From the NCBI GenBank assembly GCA_028473545.1, contig GCA_028473545.1_4546.1: DNA of 45,074 bases; one strand, given 5' to 3'. Positions 31,003 through 44,972 of the stretch are shown here, in pieces. The translations under genes were made by a program, and so were the position numbers. The number at the start of each line of letters is the position of its first letter. Within the stretch, counting starts at the first letter, position 1. A model generated the notes under the pieces. That model ran no database searches and was not told the DNA's origin. It was given only the letters and a program-made list of their open reading frames with translations. Source of the DNA: a phage.

Positions 31003-32529
31003 ATGGCAGCGGGTACTATCTTATTAACCAATAACAGCCGGTCAGTAACGGGGACCGGTACGACGTTTTCGGCGTTCAAAGCCGGTGATTTCCTTTCTGT
31101 CGTAGTGGGGCAAGTCCCCTACACTATCGCGATTGAATCTATCGAAAGCAACACCGGGCTTACTTTGGTGCTGCCGTTTGACGGCCCAACGGCATCCGGC
31201 ATCGCATGGGATGGCGTTGCGCGCGATACCATGTCGCTGGCAACGATGGGCGTAACAGTCCAGGCACAGAAAGCACTGCGTATGCTTATTGCGGACGAGA
31301 ACAACTGGCGTGCAATCTTCGGCGACGCTGAAGAAATCACAGTTACGTTACCGAACGGCACAGTGATGCAGGGTATGTCGTGGGGCTACCTGTCGCAGCT
31401 AATGAAGCAGATCGACCCGGTGGAAATGCTCAACCTGCAACAACAAGCCGCCGCATCTGAGGTCGCAGCGAAAGGATACCGCGACGAGGCCGAAGGCTTC
31501 AAGAACGATACTAATACCATCAAGACGCAAACCAACCAGATTAAGACTGATACGCAGGCGATCCACGACGCCACCAATACGATCAAGACGCAAACCGACC
31601 AGATTAAGACCGATACGCAGGCCATCAAGGACCAGACCAACCAGATTAAGACTGACACTGGCGTTATTCGAGATCAGGCCAACACGGCGAAGACTGACGC
31701 ACAAGCGGCCCGAGATGCAGCGCAGGGATACCGCGACGAAGCCGAAGGCTTCAAAAACTCAATCGACCCCACTAAGTTCATGCAGAAGTCGCAGAACCTG
31801 GCGGACGTTGCCGACAAGTACACCGCGCGCAACATTCTTGGGGTGGGCGATGACAGTTACGTTAAACACGCAACATTACGCCTGAACGGTGGCGAATCAT
31901 TAACATTCAATGAAGTGGAGGCTAACGGCTTAATTCTATCAAACGCCTCGATGGGAATCGACAATTGGGTAGGCTTCACCATGCATAAATGGTACGCCGA
32001 CTGGACACGCGCAGGAATTGTGCGTGCGGGTGACTCCCACTTGTCAGACTACCGCATCCACGTGTGGAAGAATGGGGATACTGAGGCGCTATTCCGCTTC
32101 CTGCCGGACGGGCGTCTGATTCAGGGTAACGGCGGCAACCCATCGTCGGCGGAGTTTCAGAAAGCACCGCTATCAGACCGGGACGTGAAGAAAGAAATCC
32201 AATACACGGACGGCGCGGAAAGTTACAACCGAGTACGGCAATGGCTACCAGCAATGTTTAAGTATAAGGAGTCGGACGTACAGCGTTACGGCCTTATCGC
32301 GCAGGACCTGGCCATGATTGACCCGGAATATGTGCACTTGCTGCCAGGACACGGAATCTACGAGGACGTTGTTGTTGGCGTGGACGAGGAAGGGAACGAG
32401 ATTGTCGAGCAAAAGGAGATCGGATACACCGACGATGTGCTGTCGCTTGACAGTAACGTGCTGTTGATGGATCTATGCGCCGCCTTCGTTCACCTGTTGC
32501 AGAAAGTAGAAAAGCTGGAAGGTAAGTAA
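31003..32529 (+). CDS. Tail fiber protein with C-terminal S74-type intramolecular chaperone domain
   Basis: 508 aa; internal repeats TNTIKTQTNQIKTDTQAI; C-terminal segment GLIAQDLAMIDPEYVH resembles the endosialidase-chaperone domain. Confidence 0.65.
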   Translation: MAAGTILLTNNSRSVTGTGTTFSAFKAGDFLSVVVGQVPYTIAIESIESNTGLTLVLPFDGPTASGIAWDGVARDTMSLATMGVTVQAQKALRMLIADENNWRAIFGDAEEITVTLPNGTVMQGMSWGYLSQLMKQIDPVEMLNLQQQAAASEVAAKGYRDEAEGFKNDTNTIKTQTNQIKTDTQAIHDATNTIKTQTDQIKTDTQAIKDQTNQIKTDTGVIRDQANTAKTDAQAARDAAQGYRDEAEGFKNSIDPTKFMQKSQNLADVADKYTARNILGVGDDSYVKHATLRLNGGESLTFNEVEANGLILSNASMGIDNWVGFTMHKWYADWTRAGIVRAGDSHLSDYRIHVWKNGDTEALFRFLPDGRLIQGNGGNPSSAEFQKAPLSDRDVKKEIQYTDGAESYNRVRQWLPAMFKYKESDVQRYGLIAQDLAMIDPEYVHLLPGHGIYEDVVVGVDEEGNEIVEQKEIGYTDDVLSLDSNVLLMDLCAAFVHLLQKVEKLEGK

Positions 32530-35842: not shown

Positions 35843-36534
35843 TTTAAATTTTCCTCATTGACTGCTATTGCGAAGCCGCGCGGAGTGAGCGACCGTATTA
35901 ATTTGGTGCGGGCAGATTTGCCACCGAGGCGACTATACTGCTTCGAGTACCCTTTTTCAACGAATACCGGCTTTTTCTCCGGCATACGAAAGCCATTGCC
36001 AGTCCATAAACAGGTCAGCTTTGGATATGAATCGCGGTCGTTGATGTATTCCGGGAACAACGGATGTACGTCATCCTCCGGCAGATAGCCGCCATACTCC
36101 CACGGATCAAACGAGTGGTCAGGCTTACGCCACTGGGTAGATAGCACACTGCGCGGATTCTCAATCATATATGGCACTTCAAAGAAGTCACCCAGGTAAG
36201 CGGCAATCTTCGCGGTGCGCACTGCCTTAAGCTGAAAGGCGGGGTCTTTCGCACGCTTGCACGGGAAAGCTGGCGCACCGCTCACCGCCAGATCCGTACA
36301 CGGCGGAAACGCGTAGATAATATCCGGCGTGCCGAAATCGCCATTCATCGCGCGGTCCACGAAGTCCAGATCGATAAACTCGTTACGATAGCGGATACCG
36401 CGACCATAAATCCGGTAGTCAAGGTAAGACCCGTGATCGGCTTCCGAGTAGTTGAAACAGTAGCATTTATGCCCCATCTCGGCAGCGCGCTCTATCATCA
36501 AGCCGCTGCCGTCAAATAATGACCAGATAATCAC
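35839..36534 (-). CDS. Short DNA (cytosine-5)-methyltransferase-like protein
   Basis: 231 aa; motif I-like SLFDGSG, motif IV-like FPPCTDLAVSGA, ENV-like MIENP; no obvious target-recognition domain. Confidence 0.45.
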   Translation of the reverse strand: MIIWSLFDGSGLMIERAAEMGHKCYCFNYSEADHGSYLDYRIYGRGIRYRNEFIDLDFVDRAMNGDFGTPDIIYAFPPCTDLAVSGAPAFPCKRAKDPAFQLKAVRTAKIAAYLGDFFEVPYMIENPRSVLSTQWRKPDHSFDPWEYGGYLPEDDVHPLFPEYINDRDSYPKLTCLWTGNGFRMPEKKPVFVEKGYSKQYSRLGGKSARTKLIRSLTPRGFAIAVNEENLK

Positions 36535-37955
36535 TTGCGCACCTTCTTAGCTTTCATGTATTCCATCAAGTCGTCCTGGATGTCGCGCTTACCATCGCGG
36601 CGGTCCGCCACCAGTTCGTCCAGTGTCCCGCGTGCCTGGATAATATAGACGAATACCGGTCGAGGGTGCCCGGCTTGCATCTGGCGAACTGGCCCGATAC
36701 GCTCCACGATCTGCGCAAAGTGCTCATAGTTCCACGTATCCGAGAAGATAGCCAGGTGATGTCCGCCGTCCTGCAAGTTAAGGCCGTGACCAGCCGATGC
36801 CGGGTGTGCGAACATGATGGGAATCTCGCCCCTGTTCCACGCTTCCATATCCTTATTGCCCTGCTTACCCTTACCCATCGCAACGCCGTGGGGAAACTTC
36901 TTCTTCAGACGTGCCAGGTCGTGCTTGTACTGGTACGCAACGAGCAACGGCGCTCCGTTCAACTCCTCTACGATACTTTCCAGCGCGTCCAGCTTGGCGT
37001 CGTGAATCTTCTCCCACTCGTCGGTCCGCTCTCCGTCTTCGTCCACCTTATACACGGCACCGGATGCAAGCTGAAGGCACTTGATGGTCTTAGCCGCAGC
37101 GTTCGCCGCTTCCACTGTTCCGCTTTCCAGTTCGGCAAATAGCTCACTCTCAAACTGGTCATAAATCTTGCGGGCTTTCTTCGGCAGGTCCACGACAACC
37201 GGCGTGTAGATTGGCTTGTCACATCCGAAGTATTCAGCCGCGTCCACGGTAAGGGATACATCGGACAGGCGCTGTTGGATCTCCTTCTCGGAGTTCTTTA
37301 GCGGGGCGTGCTGCATAGTGAAGCTGCCAGGCTTAACAGGCTTGCTAATAAACCAGCGATCGGTGAATGCCTTATAGCTACTGCCGAGTCGTTCGCCACC
37401 GTCGACAAACCACGTCTGGCCCCATAGGTCTTTCAGTCCGTTTGGTGCTGGTGTGCCGGTCAGGTTAATCCAGCGCCTGACGTGCTTATGTGCGATCGCC
37501 GCCAGTGCGCGTGCGCGCTTACTGCCTTGCTTGCTGCGATAGCCTTTCAGCTTAGTGGATTCATCGGCAACAACGACCGTAAAAGGCCACTCGTCGCCGC
37601 AATACTCGACAAGCCACTCAACAACATCGTAGTTGACACAAACCACGTTAGCGTTGCTCTCAAGCGCCGCAATGCGGTCCTTCTCTGGCCCGGTGCCGTC
37701 TACTACCAGCAGGGCGGGGAATCTCCATTTTTCTTGTTCCGGGGGCCACGTGCCGGACGCAACGCGCAGCGGGGCCAGCACCAGTACGCGGTCCTCCTGG
37801 TTGGACAGGATGCCAGTCTGGAACATTTTGTTTAGCGCCCACATAGTCGCGCCGGTTTTACCGGACCCCATTGTCGCCCAAATATTGCAGCGCTCATGCT
37901 TGAGAATAAACGCGGTTATCAATTTCTGATATTCGCGACGTCGGAATCGTGCCAT
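36531..37955 (-). CDS. SNF2/DEAD-like helicase
   Basis: Start at MARFRRREYQ (internal ATG at 37955); Walker A MGSGKTG, DExx box VVADEST, LTGTPAPNG motif. Confidence 0.65.
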   Translation of the reverse strand: MARFRRREYQKLITAFILKHERCNIWATMGSGKTGATMWALNKMFQTGILSNQEDRVLVLAPLRVASGTWPPEQEKWRFPALLVVDGTGPEKDRIAALESNANVVCVNYDVVEWLVEYCGDEWPFTVVVADESTKLKGYRSKQGSKRARALAAIAHKHVRRWINLTGTPAPNGLKDLWGQTWFVDGGERLGSSYKAFTDRWFISKPVKPGSFTMQHAPLKNSEKEIQQRLSDVSLTVDAAEYFGCDKPIYTPVVVDLPKKARKIYDQFESELFAELESGTVEAANAAAKTIKCLQLASGAVYKVDEDGERTDEWEKIHDAKLDALESIVEELNGAPLLVAYQYKHDLARLKKKFPHGVAMGKGKQGNKDMEAWNRGEIPIMFAHPASAGHGLNLQDGGHHLAIFSDTWNYEHFAQIVERIGPVRQMQAGHPRPVFVYIIQARGTLDELVADRRDGKRDIQDDLMEYMKAKKVRK

Positions 37956-37959
37956 ATCT

Positions 37960-38184
37960 TTATTCCGCCTTTTTCCAGACTTCGGTTTCACTGTTCCAAT
38001 TCCTCTTTGTGGCGTCGTAGTTGGTGGCGTGTCCAATGTGCACACCGGTCGCGCGGAAGCTCTTAAACTTCTGCCAGCACACTGTCAACGGCAGCGGGTA
38101 ATTCATGCCTGCGATAAACCATACGCGATCGCCAGGTTTGCACTCGCCCAGCTTGGTGAGTCGGTAATGTTCTTTCATCGTCAT
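37960..38184 (-). CDS. Hypothetical small protein
   Basis: 74-aa ORF between the helicase and Zn-ribbon genes. Confidence 0.4.
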   Translation of the reverse strand: MTMKEHYRLTKLGECKPGDRVWFIAGMNYPLPLTVCWQKFKSFRATGVHIGHATNYDATKRNWNSETEVWKKAE

Positions 38185-38905: not shown

Positions 38906-41197
38906 TTACTTCCTGTACCGATACATAATGTCGCCTTCGGCGGCAAGTGGGAAACCTTTCGCCCATATAGGCAGGTCACACATCAGCGCGCAAAGCTCCT
39001 CGGTCGTGTAATCGTCGGTGTCCGGCACTTCGGTGATCAATTCATCGTGCACTGACAGGACGATTTCATAGCCCGCAGCTTCAACACCAGGCATGGACCA
39101 TGCGAGAATATCGCGGCACAACGCCTGTACGATGTTCTCCGTAAGTTTGCCGCCGTAGGTGTACTGGAATCCCCACTGGCGCGTCGTCTGATTCTCGCCC
39201 TGGTATTTGATGCGGGTACTGGTGCGCTTCTTGCCGGTGTCTTCGTCAATCTCGGTAGTGACAGACAGCGCGATTCCGGGGTAGCTCATGATTCGCCCTG
39301 ACGGCAACTCAACCTTCAGCCACCAGCCCGCGGCGTTCGGGTCGTCGCGTTCCTCGTCAAAGGTGGGGTCGTGCTTCGCCTTCGTGCGCACAATCTTGAG
39401 CGCTTTCTTGCCATCCGGGCGAACGTTCGCGCCAGCCCAGTATGCCTTACCTGGATTGCGTATCGCACATAACACCGCCTCCTCAAGCTCGGCCCAAAAG
39501 GCTACGGTCTTCGGGTGAGATTCACGCCACATACGTTTGATCGCGTCGCAGGTCAACCACACGTTTTTAGGCAGTATGTAAGTCGGGCGCTCGTCTTTCT
39601 TGCCGGGCTTCGGCGGGCGCTTCGCTTCGTTGATGCGGGCAAACTCATAACCGCGTTTAGCCGCCGCCCAAATATGATCGGGGAATGTTCCCTTCATGAC
39701 GTCAGCCATTGCGTACAGGTCGAGGCCCAGGTTTTTAGCAAACTGCAAGAACGCCGCGACGCCGCCACCATAGCCCAGTCCCAATTCACACGCCTTACCA
39801 ATCTGGCGTAGGTCTTTGCGGTTGGCTTTGATGTAGTCCGGGTCAAGGCCAAACATCTTACCGGCAGTTTCACAATAGATATCGCGTCCGGCCTTAAACA
39901 CCATAAGCGCGGTTTTCTCGCCAGCGATCCAGGCAAGGCCACGCCCTTCCACGTTGGAGTAGTCCGCTACAACAAACTTCTTGCCCTTAGCCGGGATAAT
40001 GCACCCGCGAACGGTCGAGGCGGTTAGCTTCGATATGTCATACGCCCAGTGCGCGGTCCCGCGTAACAGGGAGTTGATGCCGTTGGTGAGCATGTGCGAC
40101 CGTACCCAAAACGAGACGTCGCTCTCACCTTCGCGGCGCTTAATCTTCCCTTCGTGGTCATCACTGTACTCGCCACGTGCCAGGTTTTGAGGCTGAAAGC
40201 CTTTACCGGCCCAGCGTAGTGTGCGCTTTGCCCCACCATACTGAAGACAACCACGGCGGCGACCATCGGAAGAAAGGCCATTGACGAGCGGATTGTATTT
40301 AGTCGATGCCGTTGATGACGCGCCGAGGCGCATTTCAATAAGCACTTTGCCCTCGTCGGGGAAGTCTGGATCTTCCAGCAAATCATTCAGCGTGGATTTC
40401 TGCGCGTTGTGAATGGTGAACGCCGGGGCAATATCACGCAGGATTGGCAGGAAGTCATTACCGGTCAGTTTACCACCGAACAGTTCCCAGGCTTCTTCCT
40501 TCAATTCTTCTTTGTGCACCTGCACCGCCTTGATCGCGGCGTTCGCCAGGTCAACGTCCACATAGAAGCCACGGTCGTTAATCAACTGGTCGATACGCAG
40601 GATTTCATCTTCCTTCGGTGAGTTGCCCCAGTCCGGTATTCGCCAGTAGACTTCACGCATTGCGATAATATCCAGCGCGGCATAGCGCAGGAATTTAGCC
40701 CATTCTTCAGGGTGAGTCTCGCGCGTGTAGCGGCGGATTTTGTAGGTCTTAGGGGTCGGCTTACAAAATCGCTTAATCAGCGCCTTGCCTGCCTTATCCT
40801 TCGCGTGCTCTGCGTCAACGCCCAGCACCTGGCATTGCATATCGAGGCCACCCGGCAGCGCGTGACGAAAGGCCATAATCATCGTATCTTCGATCTGGCT
40901 TACCGGCAGGTCGATGCCCCACTTTTCACGGATAACCAGGCGGTCAAACAGGAGGCCGTTAGCCATCACTATTTTTGCTTTCTTGCGGGTTACCTGGCGT
41001 AGCGCCTTGCGCAGTTCACGCGGCATCGTGGGGGATTCAGTGGCGTCCCATGTCTGCACGCGGCCCTCGTCGATGGCGTAGGTGCAAATCATAATCTCGG
41101 TGGATGGGTGTTCTGCATAGGCATACGCACCTGCTTTCTTCAGGTCCACCCCGCTATATGTCTCGGTGTCAAGAAACAGGCGTTCGAAGTATTTCAT
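38906..41197 (-). CDS. DNA polymerase, family A (Pol I-like) with 3'-5' exonuclease domain
   Basis: 763 aa; exo motif FLDTETYSG; polymerase motifs DYSNVEGRGLAWIAGE, RQIGKACELGLGYGGG, VLSVHDELITEV. Confidence 0.85.
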   Translation of the reverse strand: MKYFERLFLDTETYSGVDLKKAGAYAYAEHPSTEIMICTYAIDEGRVQTWDATESPTMPRELRKALRQVTRKKAKIVMANGLLFDRLVIREKWGIDLPVSQIEDTMIMAFRHALPGGLDMQCQVLGVDAEHAKDKAGKALIKRFCKPTPKTYKIRRYTRETHPEEWAKFLRYAALDIIAMREVYWRIPDWGNSPKEDEILRIDQLINDRGFYVDVDLANAAIKAVQVHKEELKEEAWELFGGKLTGNDFLPILRDIAPAFTIHNAQKSTLNDLLEDPDFPDEGKVLIEMRLGASSTASTKYNPLVNGLSSDGRRRGCLQYGGAKRTLRWAGKGFQPQNLARGEYSDDHEGKIKRREGESDVSFWVRSHMLTNGINSLLRGTAHWAYDISKLTASTVRGCIIPAKGKKFVVADYSNVEGRGLAWIAGEKTALMVFKAGRDIYCETAGKMFGLDPDYIKANRKDLRQIGKACELGLGYGGGVAAFLQFAKNLGLDLYAMADVMKGTFPDHIWAAAKRGYEFARINEAKRPPKPGKKDERPTYILPKNVWLTCDAIKRMWRESHPKTVAFWAELEEAVLCAIRNPGKAYWAGANVRPDGKKALKIVRTKAKHDPTFDEERDDPNAAGWWLKVELPSGRIMSYPGIALSVTTEIDEDTGKKRTSTRIKYQGENQTTRQWGFQYTYGGKLTENIVQALCRDILAWSMPGVEAAGYEIVLSVHDELITEVPDTDDYTTEELCALMCDLPIWAKGFPLAAEGDIMYRYRK

Positions 41198-41364
41198 TGC
41201 TTTATCCTCACTACGGCATCAGCGCTGCCGATCATGGAGAAGATACCGTCGGAAAGGGCAATCTCCTCACCGTTGTTGCGAATCTCGGCAACGGTAAAAT
41301 ACTCGCCCAGCAATTTGGACCATACACGCATTCCGACTTTTACTTCACTGGCTTTAATACGCAT
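41194..41364 (-). CDS. Small protein (56 aa) translationally coupled to the DNA polymerase
   Basis: ATG at 41364; stop TGA overlaps the polymerase ATG (ATGA); below the ORF-track cutoff. Confidence 0.35.
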   Translation of the reverse strand: MRIKASEVKVGMRVWSKLLGEYFTVAEIRNNGEEIALSDGIFSMIGSADAVVRIKQ

Positions 41365-41379
41365 TTTTCATTGTCCTAA

Positions 41380-41405
41380 TAAAAAGCCCGCATTAAGCGG
41401 GCTTG
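41380..41405 (-). terminator. Rho-independent-type terminator after the SSB-like gene
   Basis: On the minus strand aagcccgcttaatgcgggctt followed by tttta. Confidence 0.4.
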
Positions 41406-41422
41406 TATAGTGGGCTTTGCCC

Positions 41423-42211
41423 TTAACGGCGGCGACGTTTACGTGGTGCTTCGTCTTCGTCGTCTTCGTCCTCATCTTCGTCATCGCGGGACTTACGACG
41501 CTTGCGAGGCTTCTCATCTTCCTCGTCTTCGTCATCGTCGTCGCGGCGCTTGGACTTCTTGGACTTGCGCGGCTTGTCATCTTCGTCATCGTCATCACGA
41601 CGTTTGGACTTCTTAGCCTTGCGCGGTGCTTCATCTTCGTCATCGTCGCCCAGGTCGTCATCGGAACAAGAAGACCCGCCGCCACCGAAGGAATCACCAT
41701 CATCACGGAAGCGAAGACCCATCAAACCGGCACCGAGTCCTTTACCGTTGGTGTTGTTCCACGCCCAAATATCCAGGGACACGTTGCAATAACAACCGGA
41801 ATAGATTTCCTGGCCTTCGATCTCGTCGCCGTCGATGGTCAGACCCTGTTCGGTCTGCTTCTCGCCCAGTGACGTTTGGATGTTAGGCTGTTTGAACGAT
41901 TTGGCGTTGATGTACAGCATGCCTTCAAACTCTTCGGTTACTTCGTCGCGCTCATCACCGTCGCGAACTGCGCATTCCTTAGAATCCTGGGCGTAGTGGC
42001 GGTCCATCCACTTATCGGCGTTCTTCTCGGATTTCAGCTTGTCGGTGAGCACTGCGCGCGCTGCCGCTTCCACTTTGTCCACCTGCGGATCTTCTTTATC
42101 AAGAAGAATCACGGCACGGTATGCCGGTTTTTGTCCATCCTGTTTAGGGGTATCACGTTCCCAAATTTTCAGGAAGCATACGCGCACGTTTTTCAGGTTG
42201 ACTTTAGCCAT
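41423..42211 (-). CDS. ssDNA-binding protein, T7 gp2.5-like, with repetitive charged C-terminal tail
   Basis: Start at MAKVNLKNVRVCF with gagga RBS; C-terminal tandem repeats DDDDED..PRK.KKSKRR ending RKRRRR; adjacent to the Cas4-like nuclease and polymerase. Confidence 0.5.
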   Translation of the reverse strand: MAKVNLKNVRVCFLKIWERDTPKQDGQKPAYRAVILLDKEDPQVDKVEAAARAVLTDKLKSEKNADKWMDRHYAQDSKECAVRDGDERDEVTEEFEGMLYINAKSFKQPNIQTSLGEKQTEQGLTIDGDEIEGQEIYSGCYCNVSLDIWAWNNTNGKGLGAGLMGLRFRDDGDSFGGGGSSCSDDDLGDDDEDEAPRKAKKSKRRDDDDEDDKPRKSKKSKRRDDDDEDEEDEKPRKRRKSRDDEDEDEDDEDEAPRKRRRR

Positions 42212-42265
42212 TTTCAAATTCCTCATTTCGCATGTATCGGGGTTATTGTTAGCCACCCCGTTCGG

Positions 42266-42290
42266 CTTGGTTGCTAATTTACTTGGTTGC
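42266..42290. promoter_or_regulatory. Tandem TTGGTTGC boxes upstream of the SSB-like gene
   Basis: cTTGGTTGCtaatttacTTGGTTGCgcc with 17-nt spacing between repeat starts. Confidence 0.3.
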
Positions 42291-42300
42291 GCCTAAGCGG

Positions 42301-42543
42301 TCAAGCACTTTTATTAAAAAGATTTCGTGTCACGTAGTTGGTGGCGTTCTCGATCCAGCTTAACGGCGGGCGGTCGATGTGCTTCTCAACCCAGTCTACG
42401 GCAACGTCACTGTAGCCATCGTCCAGCCAGCGGGATGGATGGCGAATCATCCAGGCCACCATTAACACGCCTTGCACGCAATGCAGGATAAACCCCAGCG
42501 CGCCGAGCATAATCATCAATACGAATGCAAATACCTTATTCAT
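42301..42543 (-). CDS. Small membrane protein
   Basis: 80 aa; hydrophobic FAFVLMIMLGALGFILHCVQGVLMVAWMI. Confidence 0.4.
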   Translation of the reverse strand: MNKVFAFVLMIMLGALGFILHCVQGVLMVAWMIRHPSRWLDDGYSDVAVDWVEKHIDRPPLSWIENATNYVTRNLFNKSA

Positions 42544-43966
42544 TGCTTAAGTCCTCGTCAGTAGCTTCAGACCACGCGGGGCGCGGGTCATCGATTGGTG
42601 CCAACACCGGTTTAGCCGGTGCGCGCGTGATTTTATCACACAATTTCGCCCACACTTTCGGTTTCTCGTCCTTCAATACCTTCTCGGCATCGGTAGGACT
42701 GAGTAATGTTTCTTTGTACATTACATCGCGCTTGATCCGGGCCTTCGTGAAGATTTCAATCACTTCGCTCTCATCCGCCCACTTGCGATTACCTTCCTTA
42801 CCGGCAACCATCTTGAGGCCCAGCGATTCGCCATCACCCGCCATCACCGCCTTGAATACTGCGGACTCGATAGCCTTGATGTGCTGACGCATTGCGTCGA
42901 GGCCTTCGTATGCATTACGCAGTTCCGCCGCGCTCATAGCGCCATTGGATTCTTCCTTATAGCCGCGCTTCGCACGTCGTGCCGCTTTCCGGGCTTCGCG
43001 GGCTGTATTGCGGTCGTGGTTGGCGCATTCTTCTTCTGTCGCCACGCTCACGTCGTCCGCCAGGTCGTCGTCTGTTGCCGTTGGTGGGGTCATCGTGTCG
43101 ATGGCGGCCTTAGCGCGGGCACTACACTGATCCGCAAATCGGCACCACTGACAGGCATCGACGCTCGGTCGGAAGTCGGCGCGGGTGAGTCCCTTCTTAC
43201 CGCGGGAATACGCGTCCAGTGCGGCAATAGCACGCTTGGATGCAAACTTAGCGAATATCTCCAGCGCTTCCACTGTAATATCCCACTCCGACGCCCCGCC
43301 GCAATACGGCTGGAAGATTACCAGGCGAACGGTCGTAATGTCGTACATGGTTTGCAGCTTGCGCAGCAGGCCCAGCGCGTACAACATAAGCTGTTTGTTT
43401 TCTTTCGCCTCGACCTTATGTCGCCCGGTCTTCAGGTCGCCAACAATAAGCATGTACGTGCCGTCGGTCTTCTTCATGACCATGACCATATCGGCAGTGC
43501 CAAACGTCTTCACCCTGTTGCTGTCTATCTCGAAGCCGGGGTGCAAGATGCGGGTGAGATCGGCGCGCATTTCAAGCTGGACAAACTCCGCTACTTCAAG
43601 GAGCGGTCGCCAGTGGTCGATGTACGCGTCGCACTGTTTCACCATATCGTCGTTGACCAGTACGCCGCCTTTCGGTGCTTTCGGGTGGGCCTTTACCGGT
43701 CCCTTACCTTCGTTCTCGACGTAGCACCCTTTGTACGTCTTCGCGGATAGCTTCTTCTCACCGGCAATGATGCGGTTTAACACTACTTCAGATACGGTGT
43801 GCATACTCGTACCGTTAATCGCCGCTTGCCCGGACTCATTCGGGATACCTTTTTCGACTACCAGGGCGGCAGGACACCCCATCCATTTTTTAGATCCCGA
43901 TGGCCCAAGTAATGAGTGCTCCGTATTGCTGCCGGATTGCGTTTTGCGCTTCGGTTTAATAGCCAT
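42536..43966 (-). CDS. PD-(D/E)xK nuclease, Cas4/RecB-like (DUF2800-like) with C-terminal Cys cluster
   Basis: 476 aa; N-terminal LLGPSGSKKWMGCPAA; CQWCRFADQC cluster; paired with the gp2.5-like SSB as in many phage replication modules. Confidence 0.55.
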   Translation of the reverse strand: MAIKPKRKTQSGSNTEHSLLGPSGSKKWMGCPAALVVEKGIPNESGQAAINGTSMHTVSEVVLNRIIAGEKKLSAKTYKGCYVENEGKGPVKAHPKAPKGGVLVNDDMVKQCDAYIDHWRPLLEVAEFVQLEMRADLTRILHPGFEIDSNRVKTFGTADMVMVMKKTDGTYMLIVGDLKTGRHKVEAKENKQLMLYALGLLRKLQTMYDITTVRLVIFQPYCGGASEWDITVEALEIFAKFASKRAIAALDAYSRGKKGLTRADFRPSVDACQWCRFADQCSARAKAAIDTMTPPTATDDDLADDVSVATEEECANHDRNTAREARKAARRAKRGYKEESNGAMSAAELRNAYEGLDAMRQHIKAIESAVFKAVMAGDGESLGLKMVAGKEGNRKWADESEVIEIFTKARIKRDVMYKETLLSPTDAEKVLKDEKPKVWAKLCDKITRAPAKPVLAPIDDPRPAWSEATDEDLSNE

Positions 43967-44453: not shown

Positions 44454-44972
44454 TTAATCTTCTAATTCGAAATACGTTTCTACGATTTCTTTTAAATCTT
44501 TGTGGAAGTCTTCGACGTCGTCATCTTCCAGCTTGGCGACGGATTTAATTTCGAACGCTTCCAGCAGATCATCAAATTCGTCGTTTGCGTCGTCGTCATC
44601 TCCGCCCGCAATAATAGCGGCATACTGTTTGATTTCGTCGCGCATTTCTTTAAGCGGATCGGCATCTTTCTTGCCTTTGCCTTTCGCCGGTGCTTTCTTA
44701 GATTTCGCCGGGGCTTCTTCCTCGTCCGCGTCGTCGTCTTCTTCTACGGCTTCTTTCTTAGCCTTGCCCTTTGCGGGCGCTTTTTTGGTCTTTGCCGGGG
44801 CTTCGTCTTCAGCATCGTCATCTTCGGCTACTTCTTCTTTCGCCTTGCCCTTTGCCGGGGCTTTCTTCGCTTCCTGTTTACCAACGGCAGCGCCAGCAGT
44901 TTCATAATGCTTAGCGATGGTTTCCAGTGCTACAACGCCGCGAGTGATCAGGTTTACGATTTGCTCAAACAT
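44454..44972 (-). CDS. Highly charged tandem-repeat protein (alternating K/A/P-rich basic and D/E-rich acidic blocks)
   Basis: 172 aa; three copies of APAK.KKAPAKGKAKKE followed by acidic runs; ggaga RBS; first gene downstream of the leftward early promoter. Confidence 0.55.
   Translation of the reverse strand: MFEQIVNLITRGVVALETIAKHYETAGAAVGKQEAKKAPAKGKAKEEVAEDDDAEDEAPAKTKKAPAKGKAKKEAVEEDDDADEEEAPAKSKKAPAKGKGKKDADPLKEMRDEIKQYAAIIAGGDDDDANDEFDDLLEAFEIKSVAKLEDDDVEDFHKDLKEIVETYFELED

What the first reader, a model, noticed from the sequence alone, without database searches (positions are those of the whole stretch)
41423..41700. SSB-like protein ends in tandem repeats of alternating acidic and basic blocks
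The gp2.5-like SSB carries a C-terminal tail of three or more repeats (DDDDEDD/EDE then PRKAKKSKRR-type blocks, ending RKRRRR), encoded by roughly 60-bp DNA tandem repeats (about 41455-41640). Phage SSB tails as I know them are acidic and mediate polymerase/helicase interactions. A tail alternating poly-acidic and poly-basic segments with a basic end is atypical and resembles phase-separating or nucleic-acid-condensing proteins.
Basis: partly seen in the sequence, partly recalled or inferred. Interest (0 to 1): 0.5.

Follow-up and report, generated by a model that had tools for sequence, protein, structure and literature searches.

The report
Phage SSB with acid/basic repeat tail

Summary
The window is a Dhillonvirus-type E. 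coli siphophage. The minus-strand gene 41423-42211 (262 aa from the ATG at 42211) encodes an Enc34 ORF6 / T7 gp2.5-type SSB. It has a confident OB fold (aa 1-175), a GGGGSSCS hinge and an 87-aa disordered tail. The tail holds four tandem units of the form [7-12 D/E]-[A/K]-P-R-K-(K/R/S)n-R, encoded by 54-66 bp repeats, and ends APRKRRRR.

Charge segregation is far beyond chance (kappa 0.56 against 0.11 ± 0.04 in shuffles). Close relatives carry 2-4 units through in-frame indels. The first and last units do not vary, and substitutions in the tail are constrained.

In an unbiased family sample, most members have the canonical short acidic tail with a hydrophobic end; about 8-12% alternate. Alternating tails occur in Dhillonvirus, all five Guernseyvirinae or related isolates read, and metagenomic phages with up to 9 units, many of which keep a DDDLPF-type tip. 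The tails stay net acidic (median -10, against -8 for canonical tails), so each unit is a nearly neutral length module.

The most likely function is an intrinsically disordered linker that works through multivalent electrostatic contacts. This is inferred, not shown. I rate it a new variant of a known kind, of moderate interest.

The parts
41423..42211 (-). SSB coding sequence (262 aa plus stop), Enc34 ORF6 / T7 gp2.5 type
   Evidence: ORF listing. ATG at 42211 with an upstream SD. Pfam PF10991 E = 6.9e-32. PHROG 112 E = 1.1e-53. PDB sequence hits 4klk, 4jg2, 5odj. 161 phage records hold a near-identical gene, 98% identity to vB_EcoS_WF5505.
42219..42224 (-). Shine-Dalgarno GAGGAA, 7-8 nt upstream of the ATG at 42211
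   Evidence: Read directly from the reverse complement of 42200-42300.
41687..42211 (-). OB-fold ssDNA-binding core (aa 1-175), ending in the family-wide DGxxFGG motif
   Evidence: AlphaFold2 gives pLDDT above 93 for aa 1-170. Foldseek matches: 4klk 3.8e-13; 5odl (Enc34 ORF6 with ssDNA) 3e-12, TM 0.77; 1je5 (T7 gp2.5) 1.2e-6. Enc34 DNA-contact residues W150, N154 and K46 align to W149, N153 and K39.
41663..41686 (-). Gly/Ser hinge GGGGSSCS (aa 176-183)
   Evidence: Translation. pLDDT falls below 50 at aa 178-180.
41597..41662 (-). Tail unit 1: DDDLGDDDEDE-APRKAKKSKRR (aa 184-205). Its acidic half is the proximal acidic motif shared with canonical family tails.
   Evidence: Unit parsing. Present in all 13 complete, in-frame Dhillonvirus relatives read.
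41543..41596 (-). Tail unit 2: DDDDEDD-KPRKSKKSKRR (aa 206-223), an internal unit lost in some relatives
41486..41542 (-). Tail unit 3: DDDDEDEEDE-KPRKRRKSR (aa 224-242), an internal unit lost in some relatives
41426..41485 (-). Tail unit 4: DDEDEDEDDEDE-APRKRRRR (aa 243-262), the basic C-terminus. APRKRRRR is invariant across the Dhillonvirus relatives read.
41384..41404 (-). Intrinsic-terminator-like hairpin AAGCCCGCTTAATGCGGGCTT followed by TTTATT, 19 nt after the SSB stop and upstream of the 56-aa gene and the DNA polymerase gene
   Evidence: Terminator scan: 8-bp stem with 6 GC pairs. The sequence is conserved in relatives. It is annotated as a terminator in vB_EcoS_WF5505.

Best explanation
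Shown: the gene encodes the phage's replicative ssDNA-binding protein. An Enc34 ORF6 / T7 gp2.5-type OB fold (aa 1-175) is followed by a Gly/Ser hinge and an 87-aa intrinsically disordered tail. The tail is the family's ancestral acidic tail with a tandem array inserted into it. Each unit is an acidic block of 7-12 residues, then [A/K]-P-R-K, then a basic block rich in K, R and S that ends in R. In this lineage the canonical acidic-hydrophobic tip has been lost, so the protein ends on a basic block (APRKRRRR). The array grows and shrinks by in-frame recombination or slippage between the 54-66 bp DNA repeats. Purifying selection acts on its sequence, and it stays net negative, so each unit behaves as a nearly charge-neutral length module. 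Inferred mechanism: the proximal acidic segment keeps the family's known job. It acts as a DNA mimic that occupies the OB groove, suppresses dsDNA binding and offers a docking surface for basic patches on replisome partners. The repeat array behaves like the disordered linker of bacterial SSB, but works through charge. Its basic blocks resemble the T4 gp32 LAST motif and SPKK-type motifs. They would make weak, multivalent contacts with the DNA backbone and with acidic blocks on the same or neighbouring SSB molecules. That would raise cooperativity or higher-order assembly of SSB on ssDNA, possibly up to condensate formation, and would replace docking through a hydrophobic tip.
For: Identity: Pfam and PHROG hits, PDB sequence hits, the AF2 model with Foldseek matches to Enc34 ORF6, DUF2815 structures and T7 gp2.5, and the position between a DUF2800 PD-(D/E)XK nuclease and a family-A DNA polymerase. 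Disorder: tail pLDDT is 50-63 with no secondary structure. Non-random patterning: kappa z = 10.8. Dynamic array: 2, 3 or 4 units occur in phages whose OB domain is at least 88% identical; all indels are in frame and lie at repeat boundaries. The 4-unit form dominates (cluster P0001 has 537 member sequences). Constraint: across 14 Dhillonvirus genes, synonymous differences per codon are equal in core and tail (0.162 against 0.170), while nonsynonymous differences are far fewer than synonymous ones in both (0.028 and 0.059). APRKRRRR is invariant. Conserved unit grammar across 120 proteins and 327 transitions: P at +2 in 89%, S at -2 in 61%, R at -1 in 91%. Net charge is kept: alternating tails have median length 71.5 aa and net -10, with 118 of 120 negative; canonical tails have 26 aa and net -8. 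Ancestral state and linker analogy: most of the family has a short acidic tail with a hydrophobic end. Many distant alternators place a DDDLPF, DDDVA or DDDDY tip after up to 9 units, in the same DUF2800-SSB-PolA module. Precedents: removing the acidic tail of Enc34 ORF6 unmasks dsDNA binding, and that tail lies in a neighbour's groove in the crystal (PMC5686142). In gp32 the basic KRKST LAST motif gives cooperativity and the acidic C-domain recruits partners (PMC12893549). Alternating charge blocks in the RNase E C-terminal domain are needed for self-assembly (10.1101/272286).
Against: No functional data exist for this tail. Every mechanistic step beyond 'disordered, charge-patterned, conserved' is inference. 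Copy number varies from 2 to 4 in viable isolates, so valency is not tightly fixed. A second protein in the same operon (44454-44972) has a similar repeat linker that can be absent altogether in relatives, so such repeats can be tolerated spacers in these genomes. One deposited genome (vB_EcoS-22664B1) and one metagenomic contig carry frameshifts that would replace the tail; if real, the tail is dispensable. The unit-motif statistics come from a homologue set gathered through shared 5-residue words, which favours tails that look like the query.
Confidence: 0.5

Rival explanations
1. The C-terminal basic block (…E-APRKRRRR-COOH), with its preceding acidic block, is a specific docking peptide. 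It would replace the canonical acidic-hydrophobic SSB tip and bind an acidic pocket on a particular partner: the phage family-A polymerase, the helicase-primase, the DUF2800 nuclease or a host protein. The internal units would be duplicated, lower-affinity copies or spacers.
For: APRKRRRR and the acidic block before it are invariant in all complete, in-frame Dhillonvirus genes read, while internal units come and go. The smallest version seen in the Jerseyvirus and Kagunavirus isolates read is one acidic block plus a terminal basic block (DDLEDDEDETPRRERRRNR, DDLEDDEEDEAPRRERRRR). The same ERPRRRRR end recurs in Serratia Tsm2, Klebsiella 37P2 and many metagenomic relatives. Canonical SSB and gp2.5 tails do act through their extreme C-terminus (established for T7 gp2.5 and E. 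coli SSB; summarised in PMC5686142).
Against: No partner was identified. Related lineages end differently after the same repeats (…RRRRNRDED, …DDDDDDDE, …DDDLPF), so a basic carboxy-terminus is not required by the repeat architecture. A run of arginines is a poor specificity determinant.
Confidence: 0.22
2. The repeat array has no function of its own. It is a nearly neutral, soluble spacer produced by replication slippage in GA-rich DNA and merely tolerated. Only the proximal acidic segment matters.
For: Each unit is close to charge-neutral, and the net tail charge matches that of canonical tails. Copy number varies among viable phages. A second Dhillonvirus protein (44454-44972) carries an analogous repeat linker with 0-3 units in relatives. 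Possible natural frameshift variants exist.
Against: Nonsynonymous change in the tail is well below synonymous change. The P and S-R positions of the unit are conserved across lineages whose OB domains share only 25-35% identity. No complete, in-frame Dhillonvirus SSB read has fewer than two units. The 4-unit form dominates (537-member cluster). Similar arrays were retained or expanded independently in at least two large clades.
Confidence: 0.15
3. The tail is shaped by the arms race with SSB-sensing defence systems. It would mask or alter the surface or ssDNA complexes that Retron-Eco8, type III Sir2-HerA, Hachiman and ShosTA detect. Copy-number variation would reflect diversifying selection.
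For: The orthologous SSBs of SECphi4, SECphi6 and SECphi18 are the escape locus and trigger for Retron-Eco8 (10.1101/2022.08.27.505566). A Dhillonvirus SSB triggers type III Sir2-HerA (PMC13434337). Tandem repeats are a common substrate for rapid variation.
Against: [quoted passage not shown] Tail sequence is conserved rather than diversifying. I could not see where the reported SECphi escape mutations lie.
Confidence: 0.08

Closest known systems
Enterobacter/Hafnia phage Enc34 ORF6 (DUF2815, PF10991; PDB 5ODJ/5ODK/5ODL)
   Same: Same Pfam family and fold. Same replication-module context. W150, N154 and K46 equivalents are conserved. It also has a disordered C-terminal tail after the DGxxFG motif.
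   Different: The Enc34 tail is short and purely acidic: 16 of the last 29 residues are D/E, and the closely related phage Utah ends …WEDEV. The window protein has an 87-aa tail with four basic blocks and a poly-Arg end.
T7 gp2.5
   Same: Same T7-type OB fold (Foldseek 1je5, E = 1.2e-6). A single-OB phage replicative SSB and annealing protein whose acidic tail regulates DNA binding and partner recruitment.
   Different: About 12-15% identity. The gp2.5 tail (residues 207-232) is acidic and relies on its C-terminal Phe (established knowledge; tail boundaries from PMC13402713). Here there is no terminal aromatic residue, and basic blocks are interspersed.
SSB of phages SECphi4, SECphi6 and SECphi18 (Dhillonvirus), the trigger of Retron-Eco8; Dhillonvirus SSB as trigger of type III Sir2-HerA
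   Same: True orthologues. The SECphi18 locus (SSB gene plus flanks) is 92% identical in DNA, and its protein has the same four-unit tail.
   Different: Those studies dealt with the OB core only. [quoted passage not shown] I found no analysis of the tail.
E. coli SSB: intrinsically disordered linker plus acidic tip (DDDIPF)
   Same: The architecture of OB core, long disordered linker and short interaction tip matches the distant alternating-tail relatives that end in DDDLPF or EIPF (P0083, P0118, P0207). The E. coli linker controls cooperativity and phase separation (10.1101/2022.01.17.476650).
   Different: Different OB family; E. coli SSB is a homotetramer. Its linker is Gly/Gln/Pro-rich and nearly uncharged (my own knowledge). 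Here the linker is 76% charged and blocky, and the window protein lacks the tip.
T4 gp32: basic N-domain LAST motif (KRKST) plus acidic C-domain
   Same: An SSB that combines a basic K/R+S/T peptide, which gives cooperativity, with an acidic disordered domain, which recruits partners (PMC12893549). The basic blocks here (KSKKSKRR, RKRRKSR) have the same composition.
   Different: Unrelated fold. In gp32 the two elements sit at opposite ends and are single copies. Here they are interleaved as tandem repeats in one tail.
Caulobacter RNase E C-terminal domain (BR-body scaffold) and Ddx4-type blocky polyampholytes
   Same: A disordered region organised as alternating positive and negative blocks on a nucleic-acid-binding protein. 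In RNase E the blocks are needed for self-assembly (10.1101/272286).
   Different: No homology. The RNase E blocks are 10-30 residues across roughly 450 aa; here they are 8-12 residues across 87 aa, net -10. Condensation is unproven here.

Membership tests
Enc34 ORF6 / DUF2815 (PF10991), T7 gp2.5-type SSB | Profile match above the curated threshold | tested here: met
   PF10991 scores 111 bits against a cut-off of 26, E = 6.9e-32, covering residues 18-208 of the 277-aa ORF. PHROG 112 scores 1.1e-53.
Enc34 ORF6 / DUF2815 (PF10991), T7 gp2.5-type SSB | OB-fold barrel with the long capping helix straight after strand beta-2 | tested here: met
   The AF2 model has pLDDT above 93 over aa 1-170, with strands 2-20 and 30-38 followed by helix 43-59. 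Foldseek: 5odl TM 0.77, 4klk, 4jg2 and 1je5, all at probability 1.00.
Enc34 ORF6 / DUF2815 (PF10991), T7 gp2.5-type SSB | Conserved ssDNA-contact residues (Enc34 Trp150 stack, Asn154, Lys46) | tested here: met
   The HMMER alignment to 5odk/5odj places W149, N153 and K39 at these positions. Enc34 Tyr156 aligns to N155 and is not conserved.
Enc34 ORF6 / DUF2815 (PF10991), T7 gp2.5-type SSB | Location in a phage replication module | tested here: met
   The gene is flanked by a DUF2800 PD-(D/E)XK exonuclease (42536-43966) and a family-A DNA polymerase (38906-41197). A helicase and a helicase-primase lie elsewhere in the genome. The same gene order holds in distant relatives.
Enc34 ORF6 / DUF2815 (PF10991), T7 gp2.5-type SSB | Short acidic C-terminal tail ending in an acidic-hydrophobic or aromatic tip | tested here: not met
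   The tail is 87 aa with 28 basic residues and ends RKRRRR. In the unbiased family sample 96 of 150 proteins end in a hydrophobic residue. The tail is still net acidic at -10, and the proximal DDDL…DDDEDE segment is kept.
Enc34 ORF6 / DUF2815 (PF10991), T7 gp2.5-type SSB | Preferential ssDNA binding and annealing activity | not testable with these tools
   This needs purified protein. The orthologous SECphi4 SSB has been assayed only as a retron trigger.
Charge-patterned (blocky polyampholyte) disordered regions that self-assemble (RNase E C-terminal domain, Ddx4) | Intrinsic disorder | tested here: met
   AF2 gives pLDDT 50-63 and no secondary structure for aa 176-262.
Charge-patterned (blocky polyampholyte) disordered regions that self-assemble (RNase E C-terminal domain, Ddx4) | Alternating blocks of opposite charge, segregated beyond what composition predicts | tested here: met
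   Kappa is 0.564 against 0.111 ± 0.042 in shuffles (z = 10.8). There are 7 sign changes against 32 ± 3.9. Blocks of 8-12 residues are at or below the short end of the 10-30 range described for RNase E.
Charge-patterned (blocky polyampholyte) disordered regions that self-assemble (RNase E C-terminal domain, Ddx4) | Salt-sensitive self-assembly or condensation that depends on the charge blocks | not testable with these tools
   This needs in vitro droplet assays and in vivo imaging.
Bacterial SSB tail architecture (disordered linker plus SSB-Ct tip, DDDIPF) | C-terminal acidic tip ending in Pro-Phe or another hydrophobic residue | tested here: not met
   The window protein ends APRKRRRR. The tip is present in distant alternating-tail relatives, for example P0083 …DDDDDLPF and P0118 …DDDEIPF.
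T4 gp32 LAST motif, (Lys/Arg)3(Ser/Thr)2 | A basic K/R cluster with adjacent Ser/Thr that mediates SSB-SSB cooperativity | tested here: inconclusive
   The basic blocks KAKKSKRR, KSKKSKRR and KRRKSR match in composition, and S at -2 occurs in 61% of units family-wide. No homology exists and no functional test is possible. The motif definition comes from PMC12893549.

The most novel reading that the evidence does not exclude
The alternating acidic/basic repeat tail is a phage-encoded blocky polyampholyte. It would drive SSB-coated ssDNA into a replication or recombination condensate in the infected cell. This electrostatic multivalency would have replaced the universal 'acidic tip docks partners' mechanism of SSBs in a large clade of enterobacterial siphophages (Dhillonvirus, Guernseyvirinae). 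The repeats would act as an evolvable valency dial, possibly together with the second charge-repeat protein of the same operon (44454-44972).
Probability: 0.15. Interest if true: 0.7.

Novelty: new variant of a known kind. Interest (0 to 1): 0.45.

Why it matters
The field treats an acidic C-terminal tail or tip as universal for bacterial and phage SSBs. [quoted passage not shown] Here the SSBs of a large, easily cultured group of phages break that rule: Dhillonvirus, the Guernseyvirinae isolates read (their genera account for much of the 1347 phage records holding the family), and several metagenomic lineages. They interleave basic blocks into the tail, and in the enterobacterial clade they end on poly-Arg.

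Partner recruitment, self-inhibition and cooperativity must therefore be wired differently in these phages. The copy-number-variable repeat offers a natural series for testing how tail length, valency and charge patterning tune SSB function.

The orthologues are already working models: SECphi4/18 as Retron-Eco8 triggers, a Dhillonvirus SSB as a Sir2-HerA trigger, and BASEL collection isolates. Experiments could begin immediately. If the tail turns out to be only a tolerated spacer, the finding remains a useful annotation note and a caution against assuming an acidic tip.

Tried and rejected
1. Overlapping ORFs in the repeat are artefacts. These are the plus-strand ORFs 41417-41872 and 41502-41792 (poly-Ser) and the minus-strand alternative frame 41368-41706. 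GAT/GAC/GAA-rich repeats lack stop codons in several frames, and none of these ORFs has family support.

2. Programmed frameshift into the alternative frame was considered and set aside. Two database proteins, P0005 (phage 22664B1) and P0010, continue in that frame. In 22664B1 the cause is a 2-nt CG insertion plus a 57-nt deletion inside the repeats. That looks like a mutation or an assembly problem, not a conserved signal. All the other complete relatives read are in frame.

3. Single alpha-helix (E/K-type) or coiled-coil structure is rejected. A proline begins every basic block, and AF2 predicts no helix.

4. A nuclear-localisation-signal reading of PRKRRRR is not applicable to an E. coli siphophage.

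5. The literature search for a prior description found nothing on the tail. Search terms were Enc34 + SSB, DUF2815, Dhillonvirus + ssDNA, SECphi18 + SSB, polyampholyte + SSB + phage, and SSB + phase separation + bacteriophage.

6. A neighbour-joining tree of 254 OB domains was used to ask whether the trait arose once. It gave at least 16 state changes and two large alternating clades. The tree is too crude (157 columns, frameshifted entries included) to separate multiple origins from multiple losses.

7. A scan of all window ORFs for complementary acidic or basic patches on candidate partners found none on the polymerase, helicase or helicase-primase. It found only the second repeat protein at 44454-44972.

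8. The sigma-70-like site upstream of the SSB gene (42304-42276) is no better than chance: 1 found against 1.2 expected.
Full report
WHAT THE WINDOW IS. A 1.1-kb query around the finding matches 161 phage records. The best is 98% identity to Escherichia phage vB_EcoS_WF5505. Most of the rest are Dhillonvirus-type E. coli siphophages of about 45 kb, including SECphi18 and BASEL isolates. The window (45,074 bp) is therefore essentially a Dhillonvirus genome. The finding lies in the minus-strand replication module. That module holds a DUF2800 PD-(D/E)XK exonuclease (42536-43966), an 80-aa protein, the SSB, a terminator, a 56-aa protein and a family-A DNA polymerase (38906-41197). A helicase (36531-38045) and a helicase-primase (506-2770) lie elsewhere.

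CHECKING THE OBSERVATION. The ORF is on the minus strand, 41423-42256 by the mechanical rule. The ATG at 42211 has a GAGGAA Shine-Dalgarno 7-8 nt upstream, and homologues start MAKVNL… at 260-261 aa, so the protein is 262 aa. Tandem Repeats Finder reports a 54-bp period at 41526-41648 (2.3 copies, 84% matches, score 176) and a 63-bp period at 41454-41584 (2.1 copies, 77%, score 146).

After the OB domain and a GGGGSSCS hinge there are four units:
- DDDLGDDDEDE-APRKAKKSKRR
- DDDDEDD-KPRKSKKSKRR
- DDDDEDEEDE-KPRKRRKSR
- DDEDEDEDDEDE-APRKRRRR-stop

The units are 66, 54, 57 and 60 nt long and 75-87% identical to each other in DNA. The 87-aa tail has 38 acidic and 28 basic residues, net -10. Its charge-segregation parameter kappa is 0.564, against 0.111 ± 0.042 for 2000 shuffles (z = 10.8, none reached it). 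Charged residues change sign 7 times, against 32 ± 3.9 expected.

WHAT THE PROTEIN IS. Pfam PF10991 (Enc34_ssDNA-bd, formerly DUF2815) matches at E = 6.9e-32, and PHROG 112 (gp2.5-like SSB and annealing protein) at 1.1e-53. Sequence search of the PDB finds the DUF2815 structures 4klk and 4jg2 and Enc34 ORF6 (5odj/5odk). An AlphaFold2 model built on 61 homologues has pLDDT above 93 for residues 1-170. The tail has pLDDT 50-63 with no secondary structure. Foldseek places the core with 4klk (3.8e-13), Enc34 ORF6 bound to ssDNA (5odl, 3e-12, TM 0.77) and T7 gp2.5 (1je5, 1.2e-6). The Enc34 DNA-contact residues Trp150, Asn154 and Lys46 align to W149, N153 and K39; Tyr156 is not conserved.

HOW UNUSUAL THE TAIL IS. 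The first homologue search uses shared 5-residue words, which favours proteins with similar tails. I therefore ran an OB-domain-only HMMER search against 1.84 billion cluster representatives. It gave 1390 hits at E ≤ 1e-3. Among the best 150, the median length is 194 aa. Ninety-six end in a hydrophobic or aromatic residue after a short acidic tail (…DDDLPF, …DDDIPY, …EDDLLG). Twelve by a strict rule, about 18 by eye, carry basic blocks after acidic ones.

The canonical acidic tail is therefore the family norm, and about 8-12% of lineages alternate. Among cultured phages:
- Dhillonvirus SSBs have 2-4 units.
- Serratia Tsm2 and Klebsiella 37P2 have three units ending RRRR.
- The Jerseyvirus and Kagunavirus isolates read have a single unit (…DDLEDDEDETPRRERRRNR).
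- Serratia Scapp has three units ending in poly-Asp.
- Chivirus Utah (Enc34-like), Xanthomonas Elanor and Ruegeria DSS3-P1 have canonical acidic tails.

Metagenomic relatives at 25-35% OB identity carry up to nine units, and most keep a canonical tip (…DDDVA, …DDDDY, …DDDDDLPF). Two that I looked up sit in the same DUF2800-SSB-PolA module on phage-sized contigs of 52-62 kb. A crude NJ tree shows at least two large alternating clades: one enterobacterial without a hydrophobic tip, and one metagenomic with it. It cannot separate several gains from several losses.

EVOLUTIONARY BEHAVIOUR. Thirteen complete Dhillonvirus genes from IMG/VR and GenBank have 4 units (most), 3 (L014, L017, L021) or 2 (L016; also P0003 and P0004). 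All differences are in-frame deletions bounded by repeat sequence. The first unit is always present and APRKRRRR is invariant. The 4-unit form is by far the commonest; cluster P0001 has 537 member sequences.

Pairwise codon comparison gives equal synonymous divergence in core and tail (0.162 and 0.170 per codon). Nonsynonymous divergence is 0.028 in the core and 0.059 in the tail. The tail is less constrained than the fold but clearly under purifying selection.

Across 120 alternating-tail proteins (327 acid-to-basic transitions) the unit has a grammar beyond charge. Position +1 is K, R or A; +2 is Pro in 89%; R/K follow; and the basic block ends S(61%)-R(91%) before the next acidic run. The period is mostly 13-21 aa (with the sampling-bias caveat above).

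Alternating tails are about three times longer than canonical ones (median 71.5 against 26 aa) but have nearly the same net charge (median -10 against -8; 118 of 120 are negative). Each unit therefore adds length and local positive patches while leaving the tail's overall acidity almost unchanged.

MECHANISM: WHAT IS SHOWN AND WHAT IS INFERRED. Shown: a gp2.5/Enc34-type SSB core; a disordered, strongly charge-segregated, repeat-built tail; conservation and copy-number dynamics; and loss of the hydrophobic tip in this clade. The rest is inferred from family knowledge.

In Enc34 ORF6 the acidic tail lies in a neighbouring molecule's groove, and removing it unmasks dsDNA binding (PMC5686142). In T7 gp2.5 the tail competes with ssDNA and recruits polymerase and helicase (cited there, and in PMC13402713). 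The retained proximal acidic segment (SDDDLGDDDEDE) most plausibly keeps these roles.

The repeat array looks like a charged counterpart of the disordered linker of bacterial SSB, which controls cooperativity and phase separation. In the distant clade it literally sits between the OB core and a DDDLPF-type tip. The basic blocks resemble the gp32 LAST motif (KRKST), which gives cooperativity (PMC12893549). From my own knowledge they also resemble SPKK-type minor-groove motifs; several relatives read SPRK at the first unit.

Alternating blocks of this kind are what make the Caulobacter RNase E C-terminal domain self-assemble (10.1101/272286). My best reading is multivalent electrostatic contacts between tail and DNA and between tails. 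These would tune cooperativity or higher-order assembly on ssDNA and substitute for docking through a tip. Confidence in the mechanism is about 0.4-0.5; confidence in identity and architecture is above 0.95.

RIVALS. (a) The invariant terminal acid-plus-poly-Arg unit is a specific docking peptide for an unidentified partner. This is supported by its invariance and by the one-unit tails of the Jerseyvirus and Kagunavirus isolates. It is weakened by related lineages that end differently. (b) The array is a tolerated neutral spacer. This is supported by the near-neutral units, the variable copy number and the second repeat protein whose linker can be absent. It is opposed by purifying selection, the conserved Pro and Ser-Arg positions and the minimum of two units. 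(c) The tail is shaped by defence systems that sense SSB. The orthologues are triggers of Retron-Eco8 and type III Sir2-HerA, but the T7 tail is dispensable for Retron-Eco8 activation and the tail is conserved rather than diversifying.

PRIOR KNOWLEDGE AND NOVELTY. The family, the fold and the orthologues are known. SECphi4/6/18 SSBs were studied as retron triggers with the 'flexible C-terminal residues not displayed'. A Dhillonvirus SSB was used as a Sir2-HerA trigger with no comment on the tail. Six targeted full-text searches found no description of alternating acidic/basic SSB tails. That library is incomplete, so absence is not proof. I classify this as a new variant of a known kind: a known SSB family with an undescribed, conserved tail architecture that breaks the 'acidic tip' rule.

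VERDICT. Interest is 0.45. It would surprise SSB specialists moderately, and it can be tested immediately in established model phages. It remains a low-complexity tail on a known protein with no functional evidence yet.

Noticed in passing
window 44454-44972 (-), repeat DNA 44660-44867: A second protein of the same minus-strand operon (172 aa, PHROG 3127, unknown function) also has a tandem array of alternating basic and acidic blocks: …KKAPAKGKAKEEVAEDDDAEDE-APAKTKKAPAKGKAKKEAVEEDDDADEEE-APAKSKKAPAKGKGKKDAD… It is encoded by an 87-bp repeat (2.5 copies, score 224), the strongest tandem repeat in the window. Charge segregation has z = 6.6. Among cultured phages, tblastn finds it only in Dhillonvirus-type records (155), and metagenomic relatives at 41-47% identity also exist. 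Relatives range from 115 to 239 aa with 0-3 units between a conserved N-terminal helix and a conserved acidic C-terminal domain. That C-terminal domain contains DEFDDL, the same motif as the proximal part of canonical Enc34-family SSB tails.
   Followed up: partly
L024 (Escherichia phage vB_EcoS-22664B1, MZ234008) 1400-1720, aligned to window 41360-41700; also protein P0010: The deposited 22664B1 genome has a 2-nt CG insertion plus a 57-nt deletion inside the SSB repeats. Its annotated SSB (269 aa) therefore runs into the alternative frame (…AMTKMKHRARLRSPNVV…) and through the normal stop and terminator. P0010, from a 1979-nt metagenomic contig, shifts frame at the GGGG hinge. These are either repeat mis-assemblies or natural tail-replacing mutants. 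If they are real, the tail is dispensable.
   Followed up: partly
window 41384-41404 (-): A strong intrinsic-terminator-like hairpin (8-bp stem, 6 GC pairs, then a T-run) sits 19 nt after the SSB stop, upstream of the 56-aa gene and the DNA polymerase gene. It is conserved in relatives and annotated as a terminator in WF5505. It could set high SSB output against low polymerase output.
   Followed up: partly
window 31499-31640 (+), inside ORF 31003-32529: A 63-bp tandem repeat (2.3 copies, 81% matches, score 200) with a nested 21-bp period lies inside a 508-aa plus-strand ORF in the structural half of the genome. I did not examine it further.
   Followed up: no
SSB residues 184-260 of the 262-aa protein (199-275 in the 277-aa ORF numbering): The tail alone gives a weak match (E = 2.9e-5) to positions 276-360 of PHROG 15004, a different and longer 'single strand DNA binding protein' family. 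Similar charged low-complexity tails may therefore exist on unrelated phage SSBs.
   Followed up: no
L019 (IMGVR_UViG_3300045988_003101), contig end: This IMG/VR contig ends inside the SSB repeats, and the translation finishes …AVSYTHLRAHET. From my own knowledge, VSYTHL is the usual translation of a Nextera adapter remnant, so this is probably an assembly artefact at the repeat and not a variant tail.
   Followed up: no
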